From the sequence record NC_100371.1: a DNA stretch of 64,000 nucleotides. One strand, 5' to 3'. The stretch is from a phage. Positions within the stretch are counted from its first letter, which is position 1; every line of letters starts with the position of its first letter. The notes beneath the pieces are model-generated. The model ran no database searches. It was not told where the DNA came from and saw only the letters and a program-made list of their open reading frames with translations. Shown piece after piece: positions 5,192-59,540 of the stretch. The translations under genes and the position numbers were made by a program.

Positions 5192-5268
5192 TGGTCTCCA
5201 CGGAGTGATTCGAACACTCGACCTCCTGATCCCAAATCAGGCGCTCTACCAAGCTGAGCTACGCGGAG
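5192..5268 (-). tRNA. tRNA-Pro (anticodon UGG)
   Basis: Hand-folded cloverleaf: 7-bp acceptor stem, GTTCGAAT T-loop, anticodon loop TTTGGGA, encoded CCA. Confidence 0.75.
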
Positions 5269-5279
5269 TATTTATTATT

Positions 5280-5354
5280 TGGTGGCCCTGGGTGGAATTG
5301 AACCACCGTCTGGCGATTATGAGTCGCTTGCTTGAACCTTCCAGCTACAGGGCC
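5280..5354 (-). tRNA. tRNA-Met (anticodon CAU; could be initiator or Ile-lysidine type)
   Basis: Acceptor GGCCCTG/CAGGGCC, T-arm GGTGGTTCAATTCCACC, anticodon loop CTCATAA, encoded CCA. Confidence 0.7.
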
Positions 5355-5355
5355 A

Positions 5356-5431
5356 TGGTGCTGATGGCAGGACTTGAACCTGCAACCTATTGATTACAAA
5401 TCAATTGCACTGCCAATTGTGCTACATCAGC
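5356..5431 (-). tRNA. tRNA-Thr (anticodon UGU)
   Basis: Perfect 7-bp acceptor stem, D-stem GCAC/GTGC, anticodon loop TTTGTAA, T-arm GCAGGTTCAAGTCCTGC, CCA. Confidence 0.75.
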
Positions 5432-5435
5432 AAAA

Positions 5436-5534
5436 GGTGCTAGGTGATGGAATCGAACCATCTATGTATTCAACGACTACCTCGTCTATTTTCAGGATTA
5501 AAAATCCTCGCCCTTGCCAAAGGGCTTACCTAGC
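5436..5534 (-). tRNA. atypical tRNA-like gene (long variable region; anticodon not assignable by eye)
   Basis: Perfect acceptor pairing GCTAGGT/ACCTAGC and canonical T-arm GATGGTTCGATTCCATC, but about 99 nt long with an unusual anticodon-arm region (AGGAT-TTTTA-ATCCT); no complete encoded CCA. Confidence 0.4.
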
Positions 5535-5632
5535 TCAGCATGTTGACCATGTTGCTAGTCGGCGATGACGACTGTAACATTTGATAATCCGGTTCTGCTT
5601 CCGGCTTTCGCTTAATTACAAGGTCAACAATA

Positions 5633-5723
5633 TGGCAGAGGATAATGGAATCGAACCATCATCGAGTCATCCTCAACGGGACGGTTTTCAAGACCGCTTG
5701 AGCACCATTGCTCCCTACCCTCT
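5633..5723 (-). tRNA. tRNA-Ser (anticodon UGA), type II
   Basis: Acceptor AGAGGGT/ATCCTCT, anticodon loop CTTGAAA, long variable arm, T-arm GATGGTTCGATTCCATT, CCA. Confidence 0.7.
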
Positions 5724-5837
5724 TTTATAAACAATACTGATAATGACACTGATTTTCGAGCAGTTAGTGACTAGTATAAACGACGATAAATATCAATGCC
5801 ATTATCTGTATGATTTATGCATTTAAAAATATAAATT

Positions 5838-5925
5838 TGGTGGTGAGTGATGGAGTCGAACCACCCGAATCGCAATGATAACAGATTTACAGTCTGCCCC
5901 GCTACCCCTACGGAATTAACTCACC
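5838..5925 (-). tRNA. tRNA-Tyr (anticodon GUA), type II
   Basis: Acceptor GGTGAGT/ACTCACC, anticodon loop CTGTAAA, long variable arm, CCA. Confidence 0.7.
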
Positions 5926-6055
5926 TAAATACTAATATTTAAATTCTTTTTAAAATAGCTAGTGTTCTAACCACTAACTATGAGGTATCGGTAAAGTGGT
6001 TACCGCCACTTGCCGAAGATTTACTCTGCTAAAGTAAGCTACATTAAAAAGAACT

Positions 6056-6130
6056 TGGCACCCCGTACTGGACTCGAACCAGTGTCAACGGCTTAGAAGG
6101 CCGCTGCTTTATCCACTAAGCTAACAGGGC
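6056..6130 (-). tRNA. tRNA-Arg (anticodon UCU)
   Basis: Acceptor GCCCTGT/ACGGGGT, anticodon loop CTTCTAA, T-arm ACTGGTTCGAGTCCAGT, CCA. Confidence 0.75.
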
Positions 6131-8007: not shown

Positions 8008-8510
8008 AGCAGACTCCTCTTCAAGTTATAGAAAAACTCACTGTATCGCTTTGTAACGAGCTTTTCTATCAAACTGGTGCGATTGCCTTACTTGGTATAG
8101 TTTATATAGCTGTGGAGCGATTTAGGGGCCTTCTTGTCAGTTTCCACACATAAACTTTATCCGAACTCGCGCGGGAGGCTCTCAACCGACTCCTTCCGGC
8201 GCTGGCAAGCTTTCGTCGGTGGTCCACATTAGTGCTCGGCCTTTGGCCTGCGCTATCGCTTCGCTCCCACACATGTTAACAGTCCTGCATGTATGCACTT
8301 CTGTTATTGTGTGCACTATGGAGGCCCGGCATCTCGCCCCTCGTAGGCGAGTGCCAATGAAGGGCCGACACTACCCATAATAAGTAATAAATTTAAAACA
8401 TGGTACTTAGGATCTAGTATATTCTACATAAGTTAAGTATATGTACTTTAGTACCATAAGTACTAGATCTTTTATTTTTTATTATTTAGTTATTTTAGTT
8501 ATATTCTTTA

Positions 8511-8594
8511 TGTGTCCGTATCACGGACAGTTAGTGTCCGTATTACGGGCAGATGTGTCCGCGTGACGGACAGTAGTGTCCGTATCACGGACAG
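8511..8594. promoter_or_regulatory. array of four tandem palindromic operator-like sites
   Basis: Four ~21-bp units with consensus GTGTCCGTATCACGGACAG (inverted half-sites TGTCCGT / ACGGACA) at 8511-8530, 8532-8552, 8553-8573 and 8574-8594, inside a 660-bp intergenic region. Confidence 0.6.
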
Positions 8595-8668
8595 TTACTA
8601 ACCTCTGTTCCAGAGTGAACATAAAACATACAAATCCTTATAGTACAGATGTTTAAGTTTTTACTGGT

Positions 8669-9019
8669 CTAACCAGTTGTTGACATTCGAATAACTTCTT
8701 CTGGTGGCAAAACTTTGGAAAATGTGCATCTTTTACCTCTCCCTTGTGTGGATATTTCAACCACTCCTGCACATTCTAAAGTTTTAACGCACGCTGCTGC
8801 TTTTGTTTTCTTTATCCCAACATCTGCTGCAATTTTCCTGGTGCTGGGTGTGAAGCGTGAATTTTCTCCAAGCTTATACCAGTTGTGCAGGTAGCAGTAT
8901 ACGATCTTGTCATATAAGTCAAGAACAATAACCTCCCCAGTTGTGCCATTCAAAACTTTTGACATAGACAGTATTTCAAGGGGGACTTTAAGATATAGCA
9001 GCTTATCCCCATCTTTCAT
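8669..9019 (-). CDS. hypothetical protein, possible helix-turn-helix DNA-binding protein
   Basis: 116 aa; segment RKIAADVGIKKTKAAACVKTLECAGVV looks HTH-like; lies next to the operator array. Confidence 0.4.
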   Translation of the reverse strand: MKDGDKLLYLKVPLEILSMSKVLNGTTGEVIVLDLYDKIVYCYLHNWYKLGENSRFTPSTRKIAADVGIKKTKAAACVKTLECAGVVEISTQGRGKRCTFSKVLPPEEVIRMSTTG

Positions 9020-47022: not shown

Positions 47023-47238
47023 ATGAAAATAGAGATATTTGGTGGGGCTGACAACACTCGTGGCCTGATTTACCTTGAATTTGATGAATCTTATCTGCCA
47101 GAGGTGTTAAATATAGATGCTGTTGCGGAAGCCCTTGATGTAGACCCTAAAGATCTCTACTCTGGTGCTGAGATTGATGGTTGGGAAGAGACTCTGAACA
47201 TTGATTTCAGTGAAGTAGTGGGTGAACCTTTGGACTGA
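47023..47238 (+). CDS. small acidic protein, MKIEIF-type
   Basis: ATG with AGAGGAGA RBS; last plus-strand gene before the ORF-free region. Confidence 0.45.
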   Translation: MKIEIFGGADNTRGLIYLEFDESYLPEVLNIDAVAEALDVDPKDLYSGAEIDGWEETLNIDFSEVVGEPLD

Positions 47239-47377
47239 CACACAAGTCTGCTTTGCAGGTTTAGCTGCCCAGCTAAGGTTCTGGAGGCACCTATAACATC
47301 TTTCAACTAAATTTCCTACCAACACAGTTACTTACCCACCACACATAACTGTTTGCTTGTTTAGTGAGCAGTCATCC

Positions 47378-47405
47378 CTTGACATTCTTGCCTATCTTGA
47401 TAAAA
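47378..47405 (+). promoter_or_regulatory. sigma70-like promoter with no ORF downstream
   Basis: TTGACA-N16-TAAAAT reading into a purine/GC-rich stretch with no credible ORF. Confidence 0.4.
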
Positions 47406-48766
47406 TTAAGTTCTTCTCTTTTCTTTTACCGAGTAATTCGGGTTTTCTGTTCTCTTCGGTTTGAAGGGGTATGGAGATACACCTGAGTGAACAGGGTGAA
47501 CAACCGAACATTTGGCTATGGCATTAGCATGGCGAAGCGGACGGGTGACGAAAGAGGGGCCGGAGGACACCAGTCACTGCCATATAGTATATGGGTGATA
47601 ACCTGAAGAGTCTGAATAAGTGTTTAAGTACCAGTCAGAGGAAAAGGTGAATGGTAGCCGAAGGGGGAGAGGGGGTTTCTTATATCTTTAATTTGTATAT
47701 TATGTATACACTTGTAAACCAATTCAATTAGGATCTGTTTACCACACAAAGTGGATGGAGACAAATATCACCTATTAAACTTGAATTATTTATAGAAAAT
47801 ACCACAACACCTCTTAAGTATTTGATTTTACACACAAATCTTACAAATATCCTACCTCCATATTTAACATACTTGTAACATATTCCATATCCTACCTGCC
47901 TGATCAATTTACTCCCACCACATCCCCACATTTTCCCTGTCTGTACTACCCCTGCCCCGCCGGGAGTCCCGTCATATCTGGCTTTCCAGCAAATATCGCA
48001 CCCACAAATATCATCACCTGAAGAGGGTTTCATCCCATAATACCTGCCTTACCTGAAGAGCGCTTCATACACCACGTAAATTTTTTAATTGACCCCTCCC
48101 CGCCGCCGGAGAGGTTGGCTTTTCCCACACAGGCCTGAAGAGTCAGCCAGAAATATCTGAACAGGTCCAGTTATACCCCGATTTTGTGCCTGTCCTACAG
48201 GAGTGCTGCCCTGTCAGGAGCCGGTAGCGACTGGAGTGCTGCCAGGCGGACGGAATGGGAATACTTCTCATTTTTATAATAATTCTCAAATATCGAGGCA
48301 GTGAGGCAAATTAATAGGCCAGGCCGTTCACACAGTGGCACAACATTTGCAATCTATCTTGTGGGAGTGAATGAGAATACCTATCATTGTGAGAATGGTT
48401 ATCATTACGGGCAATTTAACATAATACCCATTATGCGCACCACTGGCGATACATACAGGGATTGATAACATGGGTTACTGTTTACGCATATAACAATTAT
48501 ATTTCTTACTATTTGTGTGGGATATAGTTAGCAACCAATAGATTAGATATTGACCTGCAGACTTCTGACCGTCCAGACGTCTAAACGCCCACACAGCAAG
48601 GATTATACATACACTCCTGCATGTAAACAGGACCGCAAAAATGCTACCATACCAGTTTGTAAATTTTTCATGCAGCACTTGACAAAGAGGAGAAAAACTT
48701 GTCTGACACACTGGACACAATGTCCCACAATATGACACAATAACGGCTGTTACTATTCCATATCTC

Positions 48767-48824
48767 ACTGTTTACGCATAGACTGTTTACGCCTGAATAG
48801 TTTACGCAAAAACTGTTTACACAG
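48767..48824. repeat. four tandem iteron-like direct repeats (ACTGTTTACGC)
   Basis: Copies at 14-17-bp spacing; further copies near 48477, 49231 and 49267. Confidence 0.55.
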
Positions 48825-48833
48825 AGATGATAA

Positions 48834-49066
48834 GCCATGCCATTCGTTTGCATGAAAACAATTAACAAGCTAACAATCTATGACATAATATAAAAGCAGG
48901 GCAACTATTAGAAGATCTATAGTTGCCTTGCTTGTTATGTCATGATTAACTAAATACAAGGCAACTATGATCTGAATAATAGATTGCAGACAAACTATCA
49001 CGGGGGTGATTGTTACTGCTTTTATATTATGTCGCGACTCCGTCGCGCCATGCCATTCGTTTGCAT
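48834..49066. repeat. dyad-symmetric element bounded by a 20-bp direct repeat
   Basis: GCCATGCCATTCGTTTGCAT at 48834-48853 and 49047-49066; inverted 18-mers GACATAATATAAAAGCAG / CTGCTTTTATATTATGTC; several GGCAACTAT/ATAGTTGCC palindromes. Confidence 0.5.
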
Positions 49067-49681
49067 AGTTGCCTTATTGTTACAGGTAAAACAATTACAT
49101 TATTAATTATTTCTTATCTTTCTCTTAGTCATCTAATGATTCCAGTCAGTATAGTAATGTACAGTAAACATTAGACGACTAAAGATTTCTCTGTGTATAA
49201 TAACTTATCGTGACAATTTCGAACTGTTTACGAAAAATGTTGACACCTGAGCTGATTTATGTTATGCAGTTTACACGAATAATTATTTTATGCAGGTATT
49301 GACTATTCCGTTATTCTGTGGTTGGAATAAATACTTTGCAGACTATAGAATGGCGTGCGTACGTGAATTCTGAGATCTGGCGGCTATAGTTATACTCGAT
49401 TTTTCGCGTAGAACACGCTTTCGATGCTGTGTAAGTGTATGACTTATAAAGATTTTTAGTTGTTGACAAGATATTGGAGATGTGCATCAGGTTAAAATTT
49501 GTGCAATAGCGGCATTACGTGCACTTTTGGGAGAGAAAACGGGTAAAAATGGCCCTGCTACCACACAATGAAAGATTATGCAATAGTTATTTTCCATGTA
49601 TATTTGTACAGTATGTGGGATTGATGGCTAGTCAATTATTCCACTTGCCAGGTAGGGCCGTTTATGGTAGGAGAAGAGCAG

Positions 49682-49709
49682 ACAAAAAGAAAGGGGCCTT
49701 TAAGCCCCT
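49682..49709 (-). terminator. rho-independent terminator ending the minus-strand gene block
   Basis: AGGGGC-loop-GCCCCT hairpin followed by a T-tract on the minus strand. Confidence 0.55.
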
Positions 49710-49728
49710 TGATAATTCAGTTAAGAAA

Positions 49729-50148
49729 TTATAATGATTCGTATATTTCAAAAATCCGATTTGCCAGGTCGTTACGGTAGCGGAATTTTTCATCGCGCTT
49801 GATCATTAAATCCTTATAGCCGTACTCTTTAAGCACTTCATTAACTTTATAGCGGCATACCTGCATATTATCTTGAGCGTCACCAATAAACTTGTTGCTG
49901 TGGTGCATTGCTTTAATTTCTTCTTCCAGGACCAGGGCAACTACCCGGACCGGATCAAGCTGATAGGCGGTAACATCTATGCGGCATTGTAGACGGCTTT
50001 TAACGTCTGCCACCGGATATACTGCAACCTCTTCCCCGTCAACATTGACAATAATTAGTTTACCATCGATTTCGAATCCTTTCGCCGCCGGACCGTGACA
50101 AAAAGCGTTATCAAAGCTATATGCCGGATTATCAGATTTAATGTTCAT
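49729..50148 (-). CDS. hypothetical protein
   Basis: 139 aa; AAGAGGTAAAAAC RBS. Confidence 0.5.
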   Translation of the reverse strand: MNIKSDNPAYSFDNAFCHGPAAKGFEIDGKLIIVNVDGEEVAVYPVADVKSRLQCRIDVTAYQLDPVRVVALVLEEEIKAMHHSNKFIGDAQDNMQVCRYKVNEVLKEYGYKDLMIKRDEKFRYRNDLANRIFEIYESL

Positions 50149-59271: not shown

Positions 59272-59540
59272 TTGACAGCGGCCCCGCCAGGTGGCACAAT
59301 ATACCTATCGAAAGGACGGCAGGCACCGGTGACGGGGGAGACAACCACCGGGGATGGGCGCTGCATAAAATGAGAACGGTTATCATTATCATTTAAAAAT
59401 TTATGCAAAAAATCCTTGCTTTCTTTGTCCTGTGTGATACTATAATAACAAGCCGGGGCAACAGGGGCCGGGAGACAATCACCGGGGGTGCCCGTTATTC
59501 TGCAAACGAGAATGATTATCATTCAAAATTCTAAATGAGA
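59272..59540 (+). ncRNA. candidate small RNA units (two tandem promoter plus GC-hairpin modules)
   Basis: TTGACA-N17-CACAAT at 59272-59300 and a TATAAT box near 59441, each followed by a GGCAGGCACC...GGTGCC-type hairpin and the shared tail GAGAA(C/T)G(G/A)TTATCATT; no ORF. Speculative. Confidence 0.25.

What the first reader, a model, noticed from the sequence alone, without database searches (positions are those of the whole stretch)
47378..47700. Promoter with no gene, followed by a purine-rich GC-rich segment: candidate non-coding RNA
TTGACA-N16-TAAAAT at 47378-47405 points into sequence with a GNRA-like hairpin (CCGAGTAATTCGGG), then a GC/purine-rich stretch (GGCGAAGCGGACGGGTGACGAAAGAGGGGCCGGAGGAC ... 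GAAGGGGGAGAGGGGG) without an ORF. I found no match by eye to tmRNA, RNase P, 6S or intron cores.
Basis: seen in the sequence. Interest (0 to 1): 0.6.

Follow-up and report, generated by a model that had tools for sequence, protein, structure and literature searches.

The report
Conserved orphan-promoter RNA in rV5 phages
At the edge of the 2.5-kb gene-free gap of an rV5-like E. coli phage, a consensus early promoter is followed by about 265 nt of non-coding, G-rich sequence that is far better conserved than the neighbouring genes; it is probably an undescribed phage RNA, but its transcription and function are untested.

Summary
The window is a Vequintavirus (rV5-like) genome. TTGACA-N16-TGATAAAAT lies at 47379-47406, one base off the reported position. 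No credible ORF follows, and the transcribed stretch includes the G-richest 150 nt of the 64 kb.

New evidence:
- Conservation island: 47413-47662 is 98.9% identical among nine genomes. The adjacent gene is 91% identical and the upstream spacer 82%.
- Boundaries fit a transcript: in the most divergent relative the promoter spacer is rewritten but both promoter boxes are kept. Two lineages lose homology right after the G-run.
- Structure on the + strand only: a G·U-rich hairpin (z = -4.0), and a 5' pyrimidine tract that pairs with the 3' G-run.

Limits: there is no Rfam, tRNA, E. coli or protein-family match, and no homolog outside the genus. Seventeen distinct sequences gave no compensatory change, so the fold is unproven. 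I found no expression data.

Best reading (about 0.4): a discrete, structured early ncRNA that acts as RNA.

Main rival and most novel reading (about 0.28): an origin-linked transcript that forms an R-loop. The top-scoring G-quadruplex motif abuts the least stable 200 bp of the window. However, a classical iteron origin candidate lies at 8.4-8.6 kb.

The parts
47379..47384 (+). -35 hexamer TTGACA
   Evidence: 11 of 12 match. Invariant in 21 homologs.
47398..47406 (+). Extended -10, TGATAAAAT
   Evidence: Invariant in 21 homologs, while the spacer 47385-47397 is rewritten and 2 nt longer in L012/L017. The same motif occurs in rV5 promoter P074.
47413..47678 (+). Inferred ~265-nt non-coding RNA, from the predicted start about 7 nt after the -10 to the end of the conserved block
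   Evidence: 47413-47662 has 98.9% mean pairwise identity (minimum 97.6%), against 91.3% for ORF163 and 81.9% for the upstream spacer. No ORF. No Rfam or tRNA hit. The start and end are inferred, not measured.
47412..47423 (+). 5' pyrimidine tract UCUUCUCUUUUC, the 5' strand of the predicted terminal helix
   Evidence: Pairs with 47660-47672 at probability 0.8-0.99 in five sequence variants. Duplex energy is -17.2 kcal/mol, in the 0.12% tail of pairs with the same geometry in the window.
47429..47441 (+). Small hairpin CCGAG-UAA-UUCGG followed by GUUUUCUGUU; terminator-like but weak
   Evidence: 5 pairs. -4.5 kcal/mol. Not a GNRA loop. Mutually exclusive with the long hairpin.
47436..47488 (+). 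Long G·U-rich hairpin of about 22 bp
   Evidence: -21.1 kcal/mol, z = -4.0, 0 of 200 shuffles on the + strand; z = -1.3 on the - strand. The 47473 G/A polymorphism converts a G·U pair to A-U.
47500..47660 (+). Purine-rich central and 3' domains, including the CCAUAU/AUAUGG hairpin at 47580-47594 and one copy of CCTGAAGAG at 47602
   Evidence: G-richest 150 nt of the 64 kb. Sub-domain folds have z of -1.8 to -1.9. The common polymorphisms 47510/11/14 and 47586/87 fall in predicted unpaired positions. CCTGAAGAG copy.
47660..47675 (+). G-run GAAGGGGGAGAGGGGG (G5AG6, G6AG6, G5AG5, G7AG6 or G6AG8 in relatives); 3' strand of the terminal helix and right-hand boundary of conservation
   Evidence: The only G4+N1-4G4+ motif on the + strand of the 64 kb. 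Highest G4Hunter-like score on that strand, 1.72. Length variants listed. Homology to LL12 and L018 ends just after it.
47676..47689 (+). T-rich tract TTTCTTATATCTTT, a possible U-tail
   Evidence: Not conserved in the second allele, which reads TTACCTGCTTCTG in LL12, C7 and L018.
47678..47877 (.). AT-rich stretch directly downstream, 27% GC
   Evidence: Least stable 200-bp duplex of the 64 kb: -227.5 kcal/mol against a mean of -264.6, sd 9. It stays at 27-31% GC in every allele, including the one whose sequence is replaced.
47810..48130 (+). C-rich, G-poor tract. It would be rut-like for + transcripts and G-rich for - transcripts. Whether it belongs to the unit is uncertain.
   Evidence: G 6-10% and C 34-37%, among the lowest purine contents of the window. 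Best hybrid-minus-duplex score of either strand, for a - strand RNA. Contains three more CCTGAAGAG copies.

Best explanation
This is a self-contained early transcription unit whose product is an RNA, not a protein.

Proposed steps:
1. Host sigma-70 RNA polymerase starts at about 47413 from a consensus extended -10 promoter of the phage's early class.
2. It makes a purine-rich RNA of about 265 nt.
3. The RNA folds on itself. A long G·U-rich 5' hairpin forms at 47436-47488. The pyrimidine-rich 5' end pairs with the 3' G-run, closing the molecule.
4. The mature 3' end lies at or just after the G-run. It forms either by termination at the following T-tract, or by Rho-type termination in the C-rich, G-poor tract downstream followed by exonuclease trimming back to the closing helix.
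5. The RNA then acts in trans, most likely as a partner or decoy for a protein. Every position is conserved, loops as well as stems.

Shown: the promoter motif and its conservation pattern, the absence of coding capacity, the conservation island and its boundaries, and folding specific to the + strand.
Inferred: transcription itself, both RNA ends, the fold, and action in trans.
Unknown: the partner.
For: Promoter. It scores 11 of 12 with TG and belongs to the phage's early class, whose 18 hits all run with the local genes (compare). The -35 and TGATAAAAT are invariant, while the spacer is rewritten and 2 nt longer in L012/L017.

Conservation. 47413-47662 is 98.9% identical, against 91.3% for ORF163, 81.9% for the upstream spacer and 86-89% for the other parts of the gap that aligned reliably (profile). 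All 118 phage records are 95-99% identical over the element, while most are 90-95% identical over the whole 2.5-kb gap.

Boundaries. In L012 the changes reach the predicted start (47407, 47411, 47412) and then stop. On the right, two lineages carry an unrelated allele starting just after the G-run.

Structure. The hairpin at 47436-47488 has z = -4.0 on the + strand and -1.3 on the - strand. The whole RNA has z = -1.8 on + and -0.15 on -. The terminal duplex is -17.2 kcal/mol, in the 0.12% tail, with pairing probability 0.8-0.99 across variants. All six non-singleton polymorphisms are either unpaired or convert G·U to A-U.

Not coding. There are stops in all frames and no family hits. The 101-aa ORF next door is broken in 7 of 8 relatives.

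Distribution. The element is confined to one genus, as accessory early functions often are.
Against: I found no transcript data. There is no covariation: 0 of 85 pairs show a compensatory change, the covariation term is -0.07, and five pairs are broken in single sequences. The sequences are too similar to test a fold.

There is no canonical local GC-rich terminator hairpin, which most bacterial sRNAs have. The T-tract is degenerate in the LL12/L018 allele.

The whole-molecule z-score is weak. No target or partner can be named. GGA (CsrA-type) motifs are not enriched, and there is no long complementarity to E. coli or to the rest of the window.

This reading treats three things as coincidence: the unique G-run, the adjacent least-stable DNA, and the mirrored G-rich tract on the other strand.
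Confidence: 0.42

Rival explanations
1. Origin-linked transcript acting in cis. The early promoter drives a G-rich transcript that stays hybridised to its C-rich template as an R-loop. It could be anchored at the G5-6AG5-8 run by an RNA/DNA hybrid G-quadruplex. This opens, and possibly primes, the adjacent AT-rich unwinding region. The arrangement would resemble the promoter-plus-unwinding-element origins of T4 (oriF/oriG), ColE1 RNA II, and the LSP-CSB II unit of human mitochondrial DNA.
For: Three extremes of the 64 kb lie in order behind the orphan promoter:
- the G-richest tract, which ranks second on the + strand for RNA:DNA-hybrid stability minus DNA-duplex stability;
- the top G-quadruplex score, which is also the only G4+N1-4G4+ motif on the + strand;
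- immediately after it, the least stable 200-bp duplex. Its AT-richness is kept even where the sequence is replaced.

There is no local terminator hairpin. The surrounding gap is full of elements that look like DNA-level sites: TGTTTACRC iterons at 15-bp spacing, GGCAACTAT palindromes and four CCTGAAGAG copies.

Precedents: T4 oriF/oriG consist of a promoter plus a DNA unwinding element, and ColE1 uses an rG-stretch/dC-stretch persistent hybrid. The CSB II G-quadruplex drives termination and a stable R-loop, and also does so with T7 RNA polymerase.
Against: A textbook iteron origin candidate lies elsewhere in the window. At 8378-8597 there is an AT-rich stretch plus four 21-22-bp palindromic iterons, next to a gene matching PHROG 12838 'replication initiation protein' with an HTH_36 domain.

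R-loop formation depends on composition, yet here every base from the start onward is conserved. The RNA is also predicted to sequester its own G-run in a helix.

The element is missing from sister genera that share the gap, namely A73 and phAPEC8.

The hybrid-stability parameters come from memory, and the score largely restates G-richness. G-quadruplex-dependent arrest of E. coli RNA polymerase is not established to my knowledge.
Confidence: 0.28
2. Transcription-boundary module. The conserved block and the C-rich tract mainly stop or organise + strand transcription at the end of the early + gene block, which has no intrinsic terminator. The RNA would be a by-product, or the leader of a longer heterogeneous transcript that runs into the gap.
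For: The rV5 authors expected a terminator between genes 163 and 164 and did not find one. My scan found none on the + strand apart from the weak hairpin at 47429. The tract 47810-48130 is the most C-rich, G-poor stretch a + transcript meets in the window, which makes it rut-like. The closing helix plus T-tract could also act on read-through RNA.
Against: A terminator does not need its own consensus promoter, nor 250 nt of invariant sequence. The T-tract is not conserved in one allele.
Confidence: 0.1
3. A DNA-level site, for example a binding platform for a phage replication, packaging or regulatory protein. The promoter match would be incidental or secondary.
For: One CCTGAAGAG copy lies inside the element and three more lie within 540 bp, all on the + strand. 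The window holds 7 copies against 0.47 expected, and the other three sit in coding-looking sequence where the motif would read Pro-Glu-Glu. The gap as a whole looks like a hub of DNA-level sites.
Against: The constraint begins at the predicted transcription start and respects the promoter boxes but not the spacer. Folding is strand-specific and depends on G·U pairs, which has no meaning in duplex DNA. A 265-bp footprint with no internal repeats would be unusual for a binding site.
Confidence: 0.08
4. An unannotated small protein gene, for example the 39-aa GTG ORF at 47487-47606, which has a GGAG 10 nt upstream.
For: ORFs of 39-40 aa exist. Some deposited records annotate short hypothetical proteins here.
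Against: There are no family hits. The conserved block is more than twice as long as any ORF. Variable sites show no third-position bias, and the common polymorphisms would be non-conservative (Phe to Ile, Gly to Ser, Ser to Asp in that frame; derived).
Confidence: 0.03
5. No function: a chance promoter match in a recently swept, and therefore uniform, stretch of DNA.
For: Only one genus carries it, and overall divergence is low, so a sweep cannot be excluded formally.
Against: The island persists in the most divergent lineage (86% identical in the flanks, 98.4% in the RNA), with divergence resuming on both sides. The promoter boxes are conserved inside a diverged spacer.
Confidence: 0.03

Closest known systems
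Phage-encoded stable small RNAs of unknown role, such as T4 species 1 and 2 (RNA C and RNA D) (from my own knowledge)
   Same: Non-coding and transcribed early by the host polymerase. Conserved within a phage group. No assigned function.
   Different: The T4 RNAs lie in the tRNA cluster and are processed from a tRNA precursor. This element has its own promoter, lies 41 kb from the tRNA cluster, is longer, and has no sequence relatives.
T4 oriF/oriG R-loop origins (citing Carles-Kinch & Kreuzer 1997 and Belanger & Kreuzer 1998)
   Same: A promoter with no gene to serve, whose transcript runs into a DNA unwinding element.
   Different: In T4 the unwinding element follows the promoter closely (about 50 bp, from memory) and its sequence is not critical. 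Here about 265 nt of invariant, foldable RNA lies between them. T4 uses a MotA-dependent middle promoter; this one is a plain sigma-70 consensus.
ColE1 RNA II primer (citing Masukata & Tomizawa 1990)
   Same: A sigma-70 promoter some hundreds of nt upstream. A structured RNA whose G-stretch matters.
   Different: No antisense RNA I promoter was found in the first 300 nt. No Rfam match at all, so nothing resembling plasmid copy-control RNAs. No RNase H site or Pol I logic is evident. The phage has its own replisome.
Human mitochondrial LSP-CSB II unit (the CSB II sequence itself is from memory)
   Same: G5-6AG5-8 followed by T's on the non-template strand, downstream of a promoter. The run varies in length between isolates, and one relative carries G6AG8. 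It lies next to where DNA must open.
   Different: A different polymerase, and about 250 nt rather than about 100 nt from the promoter. Nothing shows that E. coli RNA polymerase responds to such a motif. Here the G-run also has an intramolecular pairing partner.
6S RNA
   Same: An RNA of about 200 nt closed by pairing of its 5' and 3' ends. It would make sense in a phage that also carries an Srd-like anti-sigma factor.
   Different: No Rfam 6S hit even at E = 10. The predicted fold is multi-branched, not a rod with a central bubble.
HK022 put RNAs, cis-acting antiterminator RNAs (from my own knowledge)
   Same: Structured RNA directly downstream of an early promoter.
   Different: put RNAs are about 70 nt and serve downstream genes. 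There is no gene downstream here for 2.3 kb on this strand.

Membership tests
Any curated Rfam family (6S, tmRNA, RNase P, introns, riboswitches, CsrB/C, Y RNA-like, omega-RNA/HEARO, and others) | A covariance-model score at or above the family's gathering threshold | tested here: not met
   The only hits at gathering threshold in the whole window are six tRNAs at 5.2-6.1 kb. A permissive scan of 47150-49800 gave only miRNA-type noise at E of 3-9.
tRNA / tmRNA | Cloverleaf or tRNA-like domain detectable by ARAGORN | tested here: not met
   No call near 47.4 kb.
Bacterial sigma-70 promoter (the phage's early class) | TTGACA, a spacer of 16-18 nt, and an extended -10 (TGnTAnnnT) | tested here: met
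   11 of 12 match with TG. Same class as 17 other sites that run with their genes and as published rV5 promoters. The boxes are conserved across a diverged spacer.
Bacterial sigma-70 promoter (the phage's early class) | A transcript starting about 7 nt downstream | not testable with these tools
   No RNA data were available. No paper on Vequintavirus transcription start sites was found.
Typical Hfq-type sRNA gene | A local GC-rich intrinsic terminator hairpin followed by a U-tail | tested here: not met
   The only terminator-like site is the weak 5-bp hairpin at 47429, about 17 nt after the start. The G-run has no nearby C-rich partner. The T-tract is degenerate in one allele.
Structured RNA (generic) | Compensatory base changes that support the helices | tested here: inconclusive
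   17 distinct sequences, 85 predicted pairs: 0 compensatory changes, 6 pairs with a pair-preserving change on one side, 6 pairs broken in one sequence each. Divergence is too low to decide.
Structured RNA (generic) | Folding energy better than shuffled sequence, and specific to one strand | tested here: met
   Hairpin 47436-47488: z = -4.0 on + and -1.3 on -. Whole RNA: -1.8 on + and -0.15 on -.
T4 oriF/oriG-type origin | A promoter followed by a DNA unwinding element | tested here: inconclusive
   The promoter is present. The least stable 200 bp of the 64 kb starts at 47678. However, it lies about 265 nt from the start, not directly adjacent.
T4 oriF/oriG-type origin | A persistent RNA-DNA hybrid and replication initiation at the site | not testable with these tools
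   Needs DRIP and initiation mapping. Only a nearest-neighbour propensity score could be computed.
ColE1-type primer RNA II | A convergent antisense RNA I promoter within the 5' region | tested here: not met
   No - strand promoter-like site lies inside 47413-47690. The nearest (47727-47699, 9 of 12) lies in non-conserved sequence.
Mitochondrial CSB II-type priming element | Two long G-tracts (GnAGm) on the non-template strand followed by T's, downstream of a promoter | tested here: met
   G5AGAG5 here; G5AG5, G5AG6, G6AG6, G7AG6 or G6AG8 in relatives. Unique on this strand in the 64 kb. This is a resemblance in sequence only; there is no common descent.
RNA anti-CRISPR / solitary CRISPR repeat mimic | A repeat-like hairpin with both stem halves and the flanking handle | tested here: not met
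   There is a 13 of 14 match to the 5' half of a type I-F repeat (repeat sequence from memory; 1 of 500 shuffles do as well). The GGCAG half of the stem is absent, and the match drops to 11 of 14 in the allele carried by most relatives.
CsrB/RsmZ-type protein sponge | Enrichment of GGA / ANGGA motifs | tested here: not met
   6 GGA against 7.1 expected; 1 ANGGA against 1.9 expected.
Protein-coding gene | An ORF with a start signal, protein-level conservation and family membership | tested here: not met
   ORFs are at most 54 aa with GTG or TTG starts, with no Pfam or PHROG match. The conserved block extends beyond every ORF, and variable sites show no third-position bias.

The most novel reading that the evidence does not exclude
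The element is the priming and opening module of a transcription-dependent phage replication origin. A host-polymerase early transcript, shaped by its own fold, arrests or anchors at a two-tract G-run by forming an RNA/DNA hybrid G-quadruplex and R-loop. This exposes the adjacent, exceptionally unstable 200 bp for loading of the phage helicase-primase. It would be a bacterial-virus counterpart of the mitochondrial LSP-CSB II mechanism, working alongside a separate iteron-type origin at 8.4-8.6 kb, much as T4 combines oriE with oriF/oriG.
Probability: 0.27. Interest if true: 0.75.

Novelty: new member of a known kind. Interest (0 to 1): 0.5.

Why it matters
rV5-like phages are widely isolated, are used in E. 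coli O157 typing and biocontrol work, and form part of the BASEL reference collection. Their 2.5-kb 'non-coding' gap has carried no functional annotation since the genome was described.

This analysis picks out the one segment of the gap that is under much stronger constraint than the neighbouring protein genes. It gives that segment a promoter, boundaries, a strand and a testable fold.

If it is a trans-acting RNA, it would found a new phage ncRNA family expressed at the start of infection, when host takeover and counter-defence happen. If it is origin-linked, it would show R-loop and G-quadruplex priming in a phage that uses host RNA polymerase. It would also give a tractable bacterial model for a mechanism known mainly from mitochondria and ColE1.

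Either way, the element is small, defined and absent from sister genera, so knock-out and transplant experiments are straightforward.

Tried and rejected
Searches for homologs
- Rfam at gathering threshold over the whole window, and permissively over the gap: nothing relevant. ARAGORN: nothing.
- blastn with 11-nt words against 50,697 phage records found only 118 Vequintavirus records at 95-99% identity.
- No hit in E. coli genomes. One hit in plasmids, in a 137.6-kb record I take to be a mislabelled phage genome.
- IMG/VR gave two contigs. The metagenome scan with a pattern tolerant of purine/pyrimidine swaps gave five contigs, none more divergent. GTDB genomes gave none.
- Synteny. The gap of phAPEC8 and A73, found through the ORF164 homolog, has no homolog by blastn or nhmmer. 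PVP-SE1 and KB57, reached through the ORF158 homolog, are not syntenic here, so they were uninformative. The search with ORF163 protein in IMG/VR added nothing new.
- I did not build a covariance model for remote search.

Ideas tested and dropped
- Covariation: none found.
- The 101-aa - strand ORF at 47728-48033 as a real gene: broken in relatives.
- Small ORFs: no families.
- CRISPR-repeat mimic: partial match only, and not in the common allele.
- CsrA sponge: GGA motifs not enriched.
- DnaA boxes: at the chance level.
- Long-range pairing of the G-run with CCCCTCCCC at 48093: that C-run is not conserved, and the 889-nt fold is no better than shuffles, z = +0.9.
- Antisense targets within the window: only chance 11-12-mers.

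Literature
- Six literature searches found no description of this RNA, nor any Vequintavirus transcription map.
Full report
**Where the finding lies**

The window is an rV5-like phage (genus Vequintavirus). The 2.5 kb around the finding is 97.5% identical to phage ECP32 and matches 121 phage records.

The finding sits at the left edge of a gene-free stretch, 47239-49728. On the left, a block of + strand early genes ends with the rV5 ORF163 homolog at 47238. On the right, a block of - strand genes ends with the ORF164 homolog at 49729, which has its own terminator at 49691-49710.

The rV5 genome paper draws this stretch as a grey box labelled 'non-coding'. It notes only that a GC-skew change falls there, and that the terminators expected between genes 163 and 164 were not found. 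Its promoter table lists none at this site; promoters were sought only upstream of genes. I found no paper that describes an RNA here or maps Vequintavirus transcripts.

**The observation**

The promoter is TTGACA-N16-TAAAAT with a TG extended -10, an 11 of 12 match. The loose scan finds 19 promoter-like sites in 4 kb against 10.8 expected, so a match alone means little. A stricter pattern for this phage's early promoters (TTGAC[AT], spacer, TGnTAnnnT) hits 18 times in 64 kb. Every hit points the same way as the local genes, and this is the last one of the + block. The same TGATAAAAT occurs in the published rV5 promoter P074.

No credible ORF follows. There are stops in all three frames. The ORFs present are at most 54 aa, have GTG or TTG starts, and match no Pfam or PHROG family.

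The 150 nt starting at 47531 are the G-richest of the whole window, at 37% G and 67% purine. GC is 48% against 42% for the window.

One detail is wrong. CCGAGTAATTCGG is a 5-bp stem with a three-base loop, worth -4.5 kcal/mol. It is not a GNRA tetraloop.

**Conservation**

This is the strongest new evidence.

All 118 matching phage records are 95-99% identical over the element, while most are only 90-95% identical over the whole gap.

Among nine genomes with long flanks, mean pairwise identity is as follows (profile):

| Segment | Mean pairwise identity |
|---|---|
| 47413-47662 (the element) | 98.9% (minimum 97.6%) |
| ORF163 coding sequence | 91.3% |
| 47239-47378 (upstream spacer) | 81.9% |
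| AT-rich, C-rich and other reliably aligned gap segments | 86-89% |

The values that one search returned for the iteron segment and for ORF164 were distorted by truncated loci, and I do not use them.

The boundaries of the island are informative.
- Left boundary. The most divergent relative (an IMG/VR and metagenome contig, L012/L017, about 86% identical in the flanks) has a rewritten promoter spacer that is 2 nt longer. The -35 and TGATAAAAT are intact. Further changes reach 47407, 47411 and 47412, and then almost none follow. That is the pattern expected if selection acts on two promoter boxes and on the transcript from its first base.
- Right boundary. Phages LL12 and C7 and metagenome contig L018 carry an unrelated allele that begins two to three bases after the G-run.

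The unit is therefore 47379 to about 47678.

**Is it a structured RNA?**

The whole 289 nt folds only modestly better than shuffles on the + strand (z = -1.8), and no better on the - strand (z = -0.15).

One sub-structure is clearly non-random. The hairpin at 47436-47488 has about 22 pairs, many of them G·U. It folds at -21.1 kcal/mol, z = -4.0, with 0 of 200 shuffles doing as well. Its reverse complement gives z = -1.3. Stability that depends on G·U pairs points to RNA of the + strand rather than to a DNA cruciform.

The pyrimidine-only 5' end (UCUUCUCUUUUC) pairs with GAAGGGGGAG(A)GGG at the 3' end.
- The pairing probability is 0.8-0.99 in five sequence variants.
- The duplex energy of -17.2 kcal/mol is reached by only 0.12% of equally spaced segment pairs in the window.

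Comparative support is weak. I aligned 21 homologs, which gave 17 distinct sequences.
- Of 85 predicted pairs, none shows a compensatory double change.
- Six pairs have a pair-preserving change on one side, and six are broken in a single sequence each.
- The covariation term is -0.07.
- All six polymorphisms seen in more than one sequence are either unpaired or convert G·U to A-U. They form about three independent clusters, so this is only suggestive.

No more divergent homolog exists in the phage, plasmid, E. coli, IMG/VR, metagenome or GTDB collections. None is present in the homologous gap of the sister lineages phAPEC8 and A73. The fold therefore remains a prediction.

**Known families**

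Rfam gives nothing, either at gathering thresholds or permissively. ARAGORN gives nothing.

I also tested and rejected these ideas:
- A CsrA sponge. GGA motifs are not enriched.
- A CRISPR-repeat mimic. There is a 13 of 14 match to half of a type I-F repeat (repeat sequence from memory), but the other half of the hairpin is missing and the match weakens in the common allele.
- A neighbouring - strand gene. The 101-aa ORF is interrupted in 7 of 8 relatives.

Three extremes of the 64 kb lie in a row behind the promoter.
1. The transcribed tract is the G-richest of the window. It ranks second on its strand for RNA:DNA-hybrid stability minus DNA-duplex stability (parameters from memory).
2. It ends in the only G4+N1-4G4+ motif on the + strand, which also has the highest G-quadruplex score on that strand. 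The tract lengths vary between isolates: G5AG5, G5AG6, G6AG6, G7AG6 and G6AG8.
3. The next 200 bp form the least stable duplex in the window, -227.5 kcal/mol against a mean of -264.6 with sd 9. They stay at 27-31% GC even in the allele whose sequence is replaced.

Beyond that lies the most C-rich, G-poor tract of the window. After it come repeat families typical of DNA that acts in cis:
- CCTGAAGAG four times on one strand, one copy inside the element. The window holds 7 copies against 0.47 expected. The other three lie far from the gap in sequence that looks coding, where the motif would read Pro-Glu-Glu.
- TGTTTACRC iterons at 15-bp spacing.
- GGCAACTAT palindromes.
- A second very unstable stretch at 49091.

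This order of promoter, G-rich transcript, G-run and unwinding element recalls three known systems. T4 oriF/oriG consist of a promoter plus an unwinding element and form a persistent R-loop. ColE1 RNA II forms a hybrid between an rG stretch and a dC stretch. In the mitochondrial LSP-CSB II unit, a G-quadruplex in the nascent RNA causes termination and a stable hybrid with the non-template strand.

**A fact that cuts against the origin reading**

The window holds a better classical origin candidate elsewhere. At 8378-8597 there are 130 bp of AT-rich DNA, the least stable at the 60- and 120-bp scales. Next come four tandem 21-22-bp palindromic iterons. Both lie immediately downstream of a 116-aa gene matching PHROG 12838 'replication initiation protein', with an HTH_36 match just below Pfam's cut-off (24.8 against 25 bits). 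The arrangement is conserved in 118 records. T4 shows that iteron origins and R-loop origins can coexist, but the gap element is no longer needed to explain replication.

**Weighing the readings**

That the unit is functional and acts through its transcript seems likely; I put this at roughly 0.7-0.75.

For the mode of action I favour a discrete, structured, early ncRNA acting in trans (0.42). My reasons:
- Every base from the start to the G-run is conserved.
- The hairpin and the terminal helix are features of the RNA itself.
- The predicted fold sequesters the G-run.
- The element is confined to one genus, like an accessory function.

The lack of a local terminator could be explained by termination in the U-rich or C-rich sequence downstream, followed by trimming back to the closing helix. 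That step is inference.

The origin-linked R-loop reading (0.28) explains the G-run, the missing terminator and the adjacent unwinding-prone DNA. The trans-RNA reading has to call those coincidence.

The remaining readings each get 0.1 or less: a transcription-boundary module, a DNA binding site, a small protein, and no function.

**Verdict**

This is a real, sharply bounded, non-coding element with very strong sequence conservation, and it is missing from the literature and the Rfam library I could search. It is best filed as a new phage-encoded ncRNA candidate with no known family. Its transcription, ends, fold and function all still need experiments.

Noticed in passing
window 8378-9019: A candidate iteron-type replication origin. 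It has 130 bp of AT-rich DNA, the least stable 60- and 120-bp duplex of the window. This is followed by four tandem 21-22-bp palindromic repeats, GTGTCCGTATCACGGACAGTTA, at 8512-8597. Both lie directly downstream of a 116-aa - strand gene at 8669-9019 that matches PHROG 12838 'replication initiation protein' (HTH_36 just below Pfam's cut-off). Conserved in 118 Vequintavirus records.
   Followed up: partly
window 48470-49300: Repeat families in the gene-free gap. TGTTTACGC/TGTTTACAC iterons lie at 15-bp spacing at 48769-48822, with further copies at 48479 and near 49226; their copy number differs between relatives, and this is the least conserved part of the gap. There are four GGCAACTAT/ATAGTTGCC palindrome arms at 48894-49082, an 18-nt perfect inverted repeat at 48882/49016, and a 20-nt perfect direct repeat at 48834/49047.
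   Followed up: partly
window 47602, 48017, 48052, 48134: CCTGAAGAG occurs four times within 540 bp, always on the + strand. The window holds 7 copies against 0.47 expected; the other three lie in sequence that looks coding, where the motif would read Pro-Glu-Glu. The A73 gap carries a related array of CCACAGAG-type repeats.
   Followed up: partly
window 47810-48130: The most C-rich, G-poor tract of the 64 kb on the + strand (G 6-10%, C 34-37%). It would be a good Rho-loading site for untranslated + transcripts. Read on the - strand it is the most R-loop-prone tract in the window. No convincing - strand promoter was found to feed it.
   Followed up: partly
window 49091-49290: The second least stable 200-bp duplex of the window, also inside the gap, just to the right of the palindromes.
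   Followed up: no
window 48391-48406 and 59508-59523; L003 6619 (- strand): A Fur-box-like motif, GAGAATnnTTATCATT, in the gap next to a looser copy at 48368. It occurs again at 59.5 kb and in the phAPEC8 gap. The resemblance to the Fur consensus is from memory.
   Followed up: no
window 5192-6130 (- strand): A tRNA cluster. ARAGORN reports one 99-nt gene at 5436-5534 with a four-base anticodon 'atcc'; Rfam scores it as tRNA at 37.5 bits. The two tools also disagree on two other calls: 5633-5723 is found by ARAGORN only, and 5841-5925 by Rfam only.
   Followed up: no
window 47728-48033 (- strand): A 101-aa ATG ORF, annotated as a hypothetical or 'membrane' protein in some deposited genomes. 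It is interrupted by stop codons or frameshifts in 7 of 8 relatives, so it is probably spurious.
   Followed up: yes
L004 (phage A73) 6008-6150, - strand of the locus: The sister genus has its own orphan promoter-like site (TTGACA-N16-TACATA). It is followed by a purine-rich RNA of about 105 nt closed by a perfect 16-bp stem (z = -2.0). A G5AG5AG5 run followed by AT-rich DNA lies elsewhere in its gap. There is no sequence homology to the element studied here.
   Followed up: partly
L012 / L017, inserted at window position ~48093: The most divergent relative has an insertion of about 70 bp where the window has CCCCTCCCC, and other relatives have different short insertions there. This is an indel hot spot inside the gap.
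   Followed up: no
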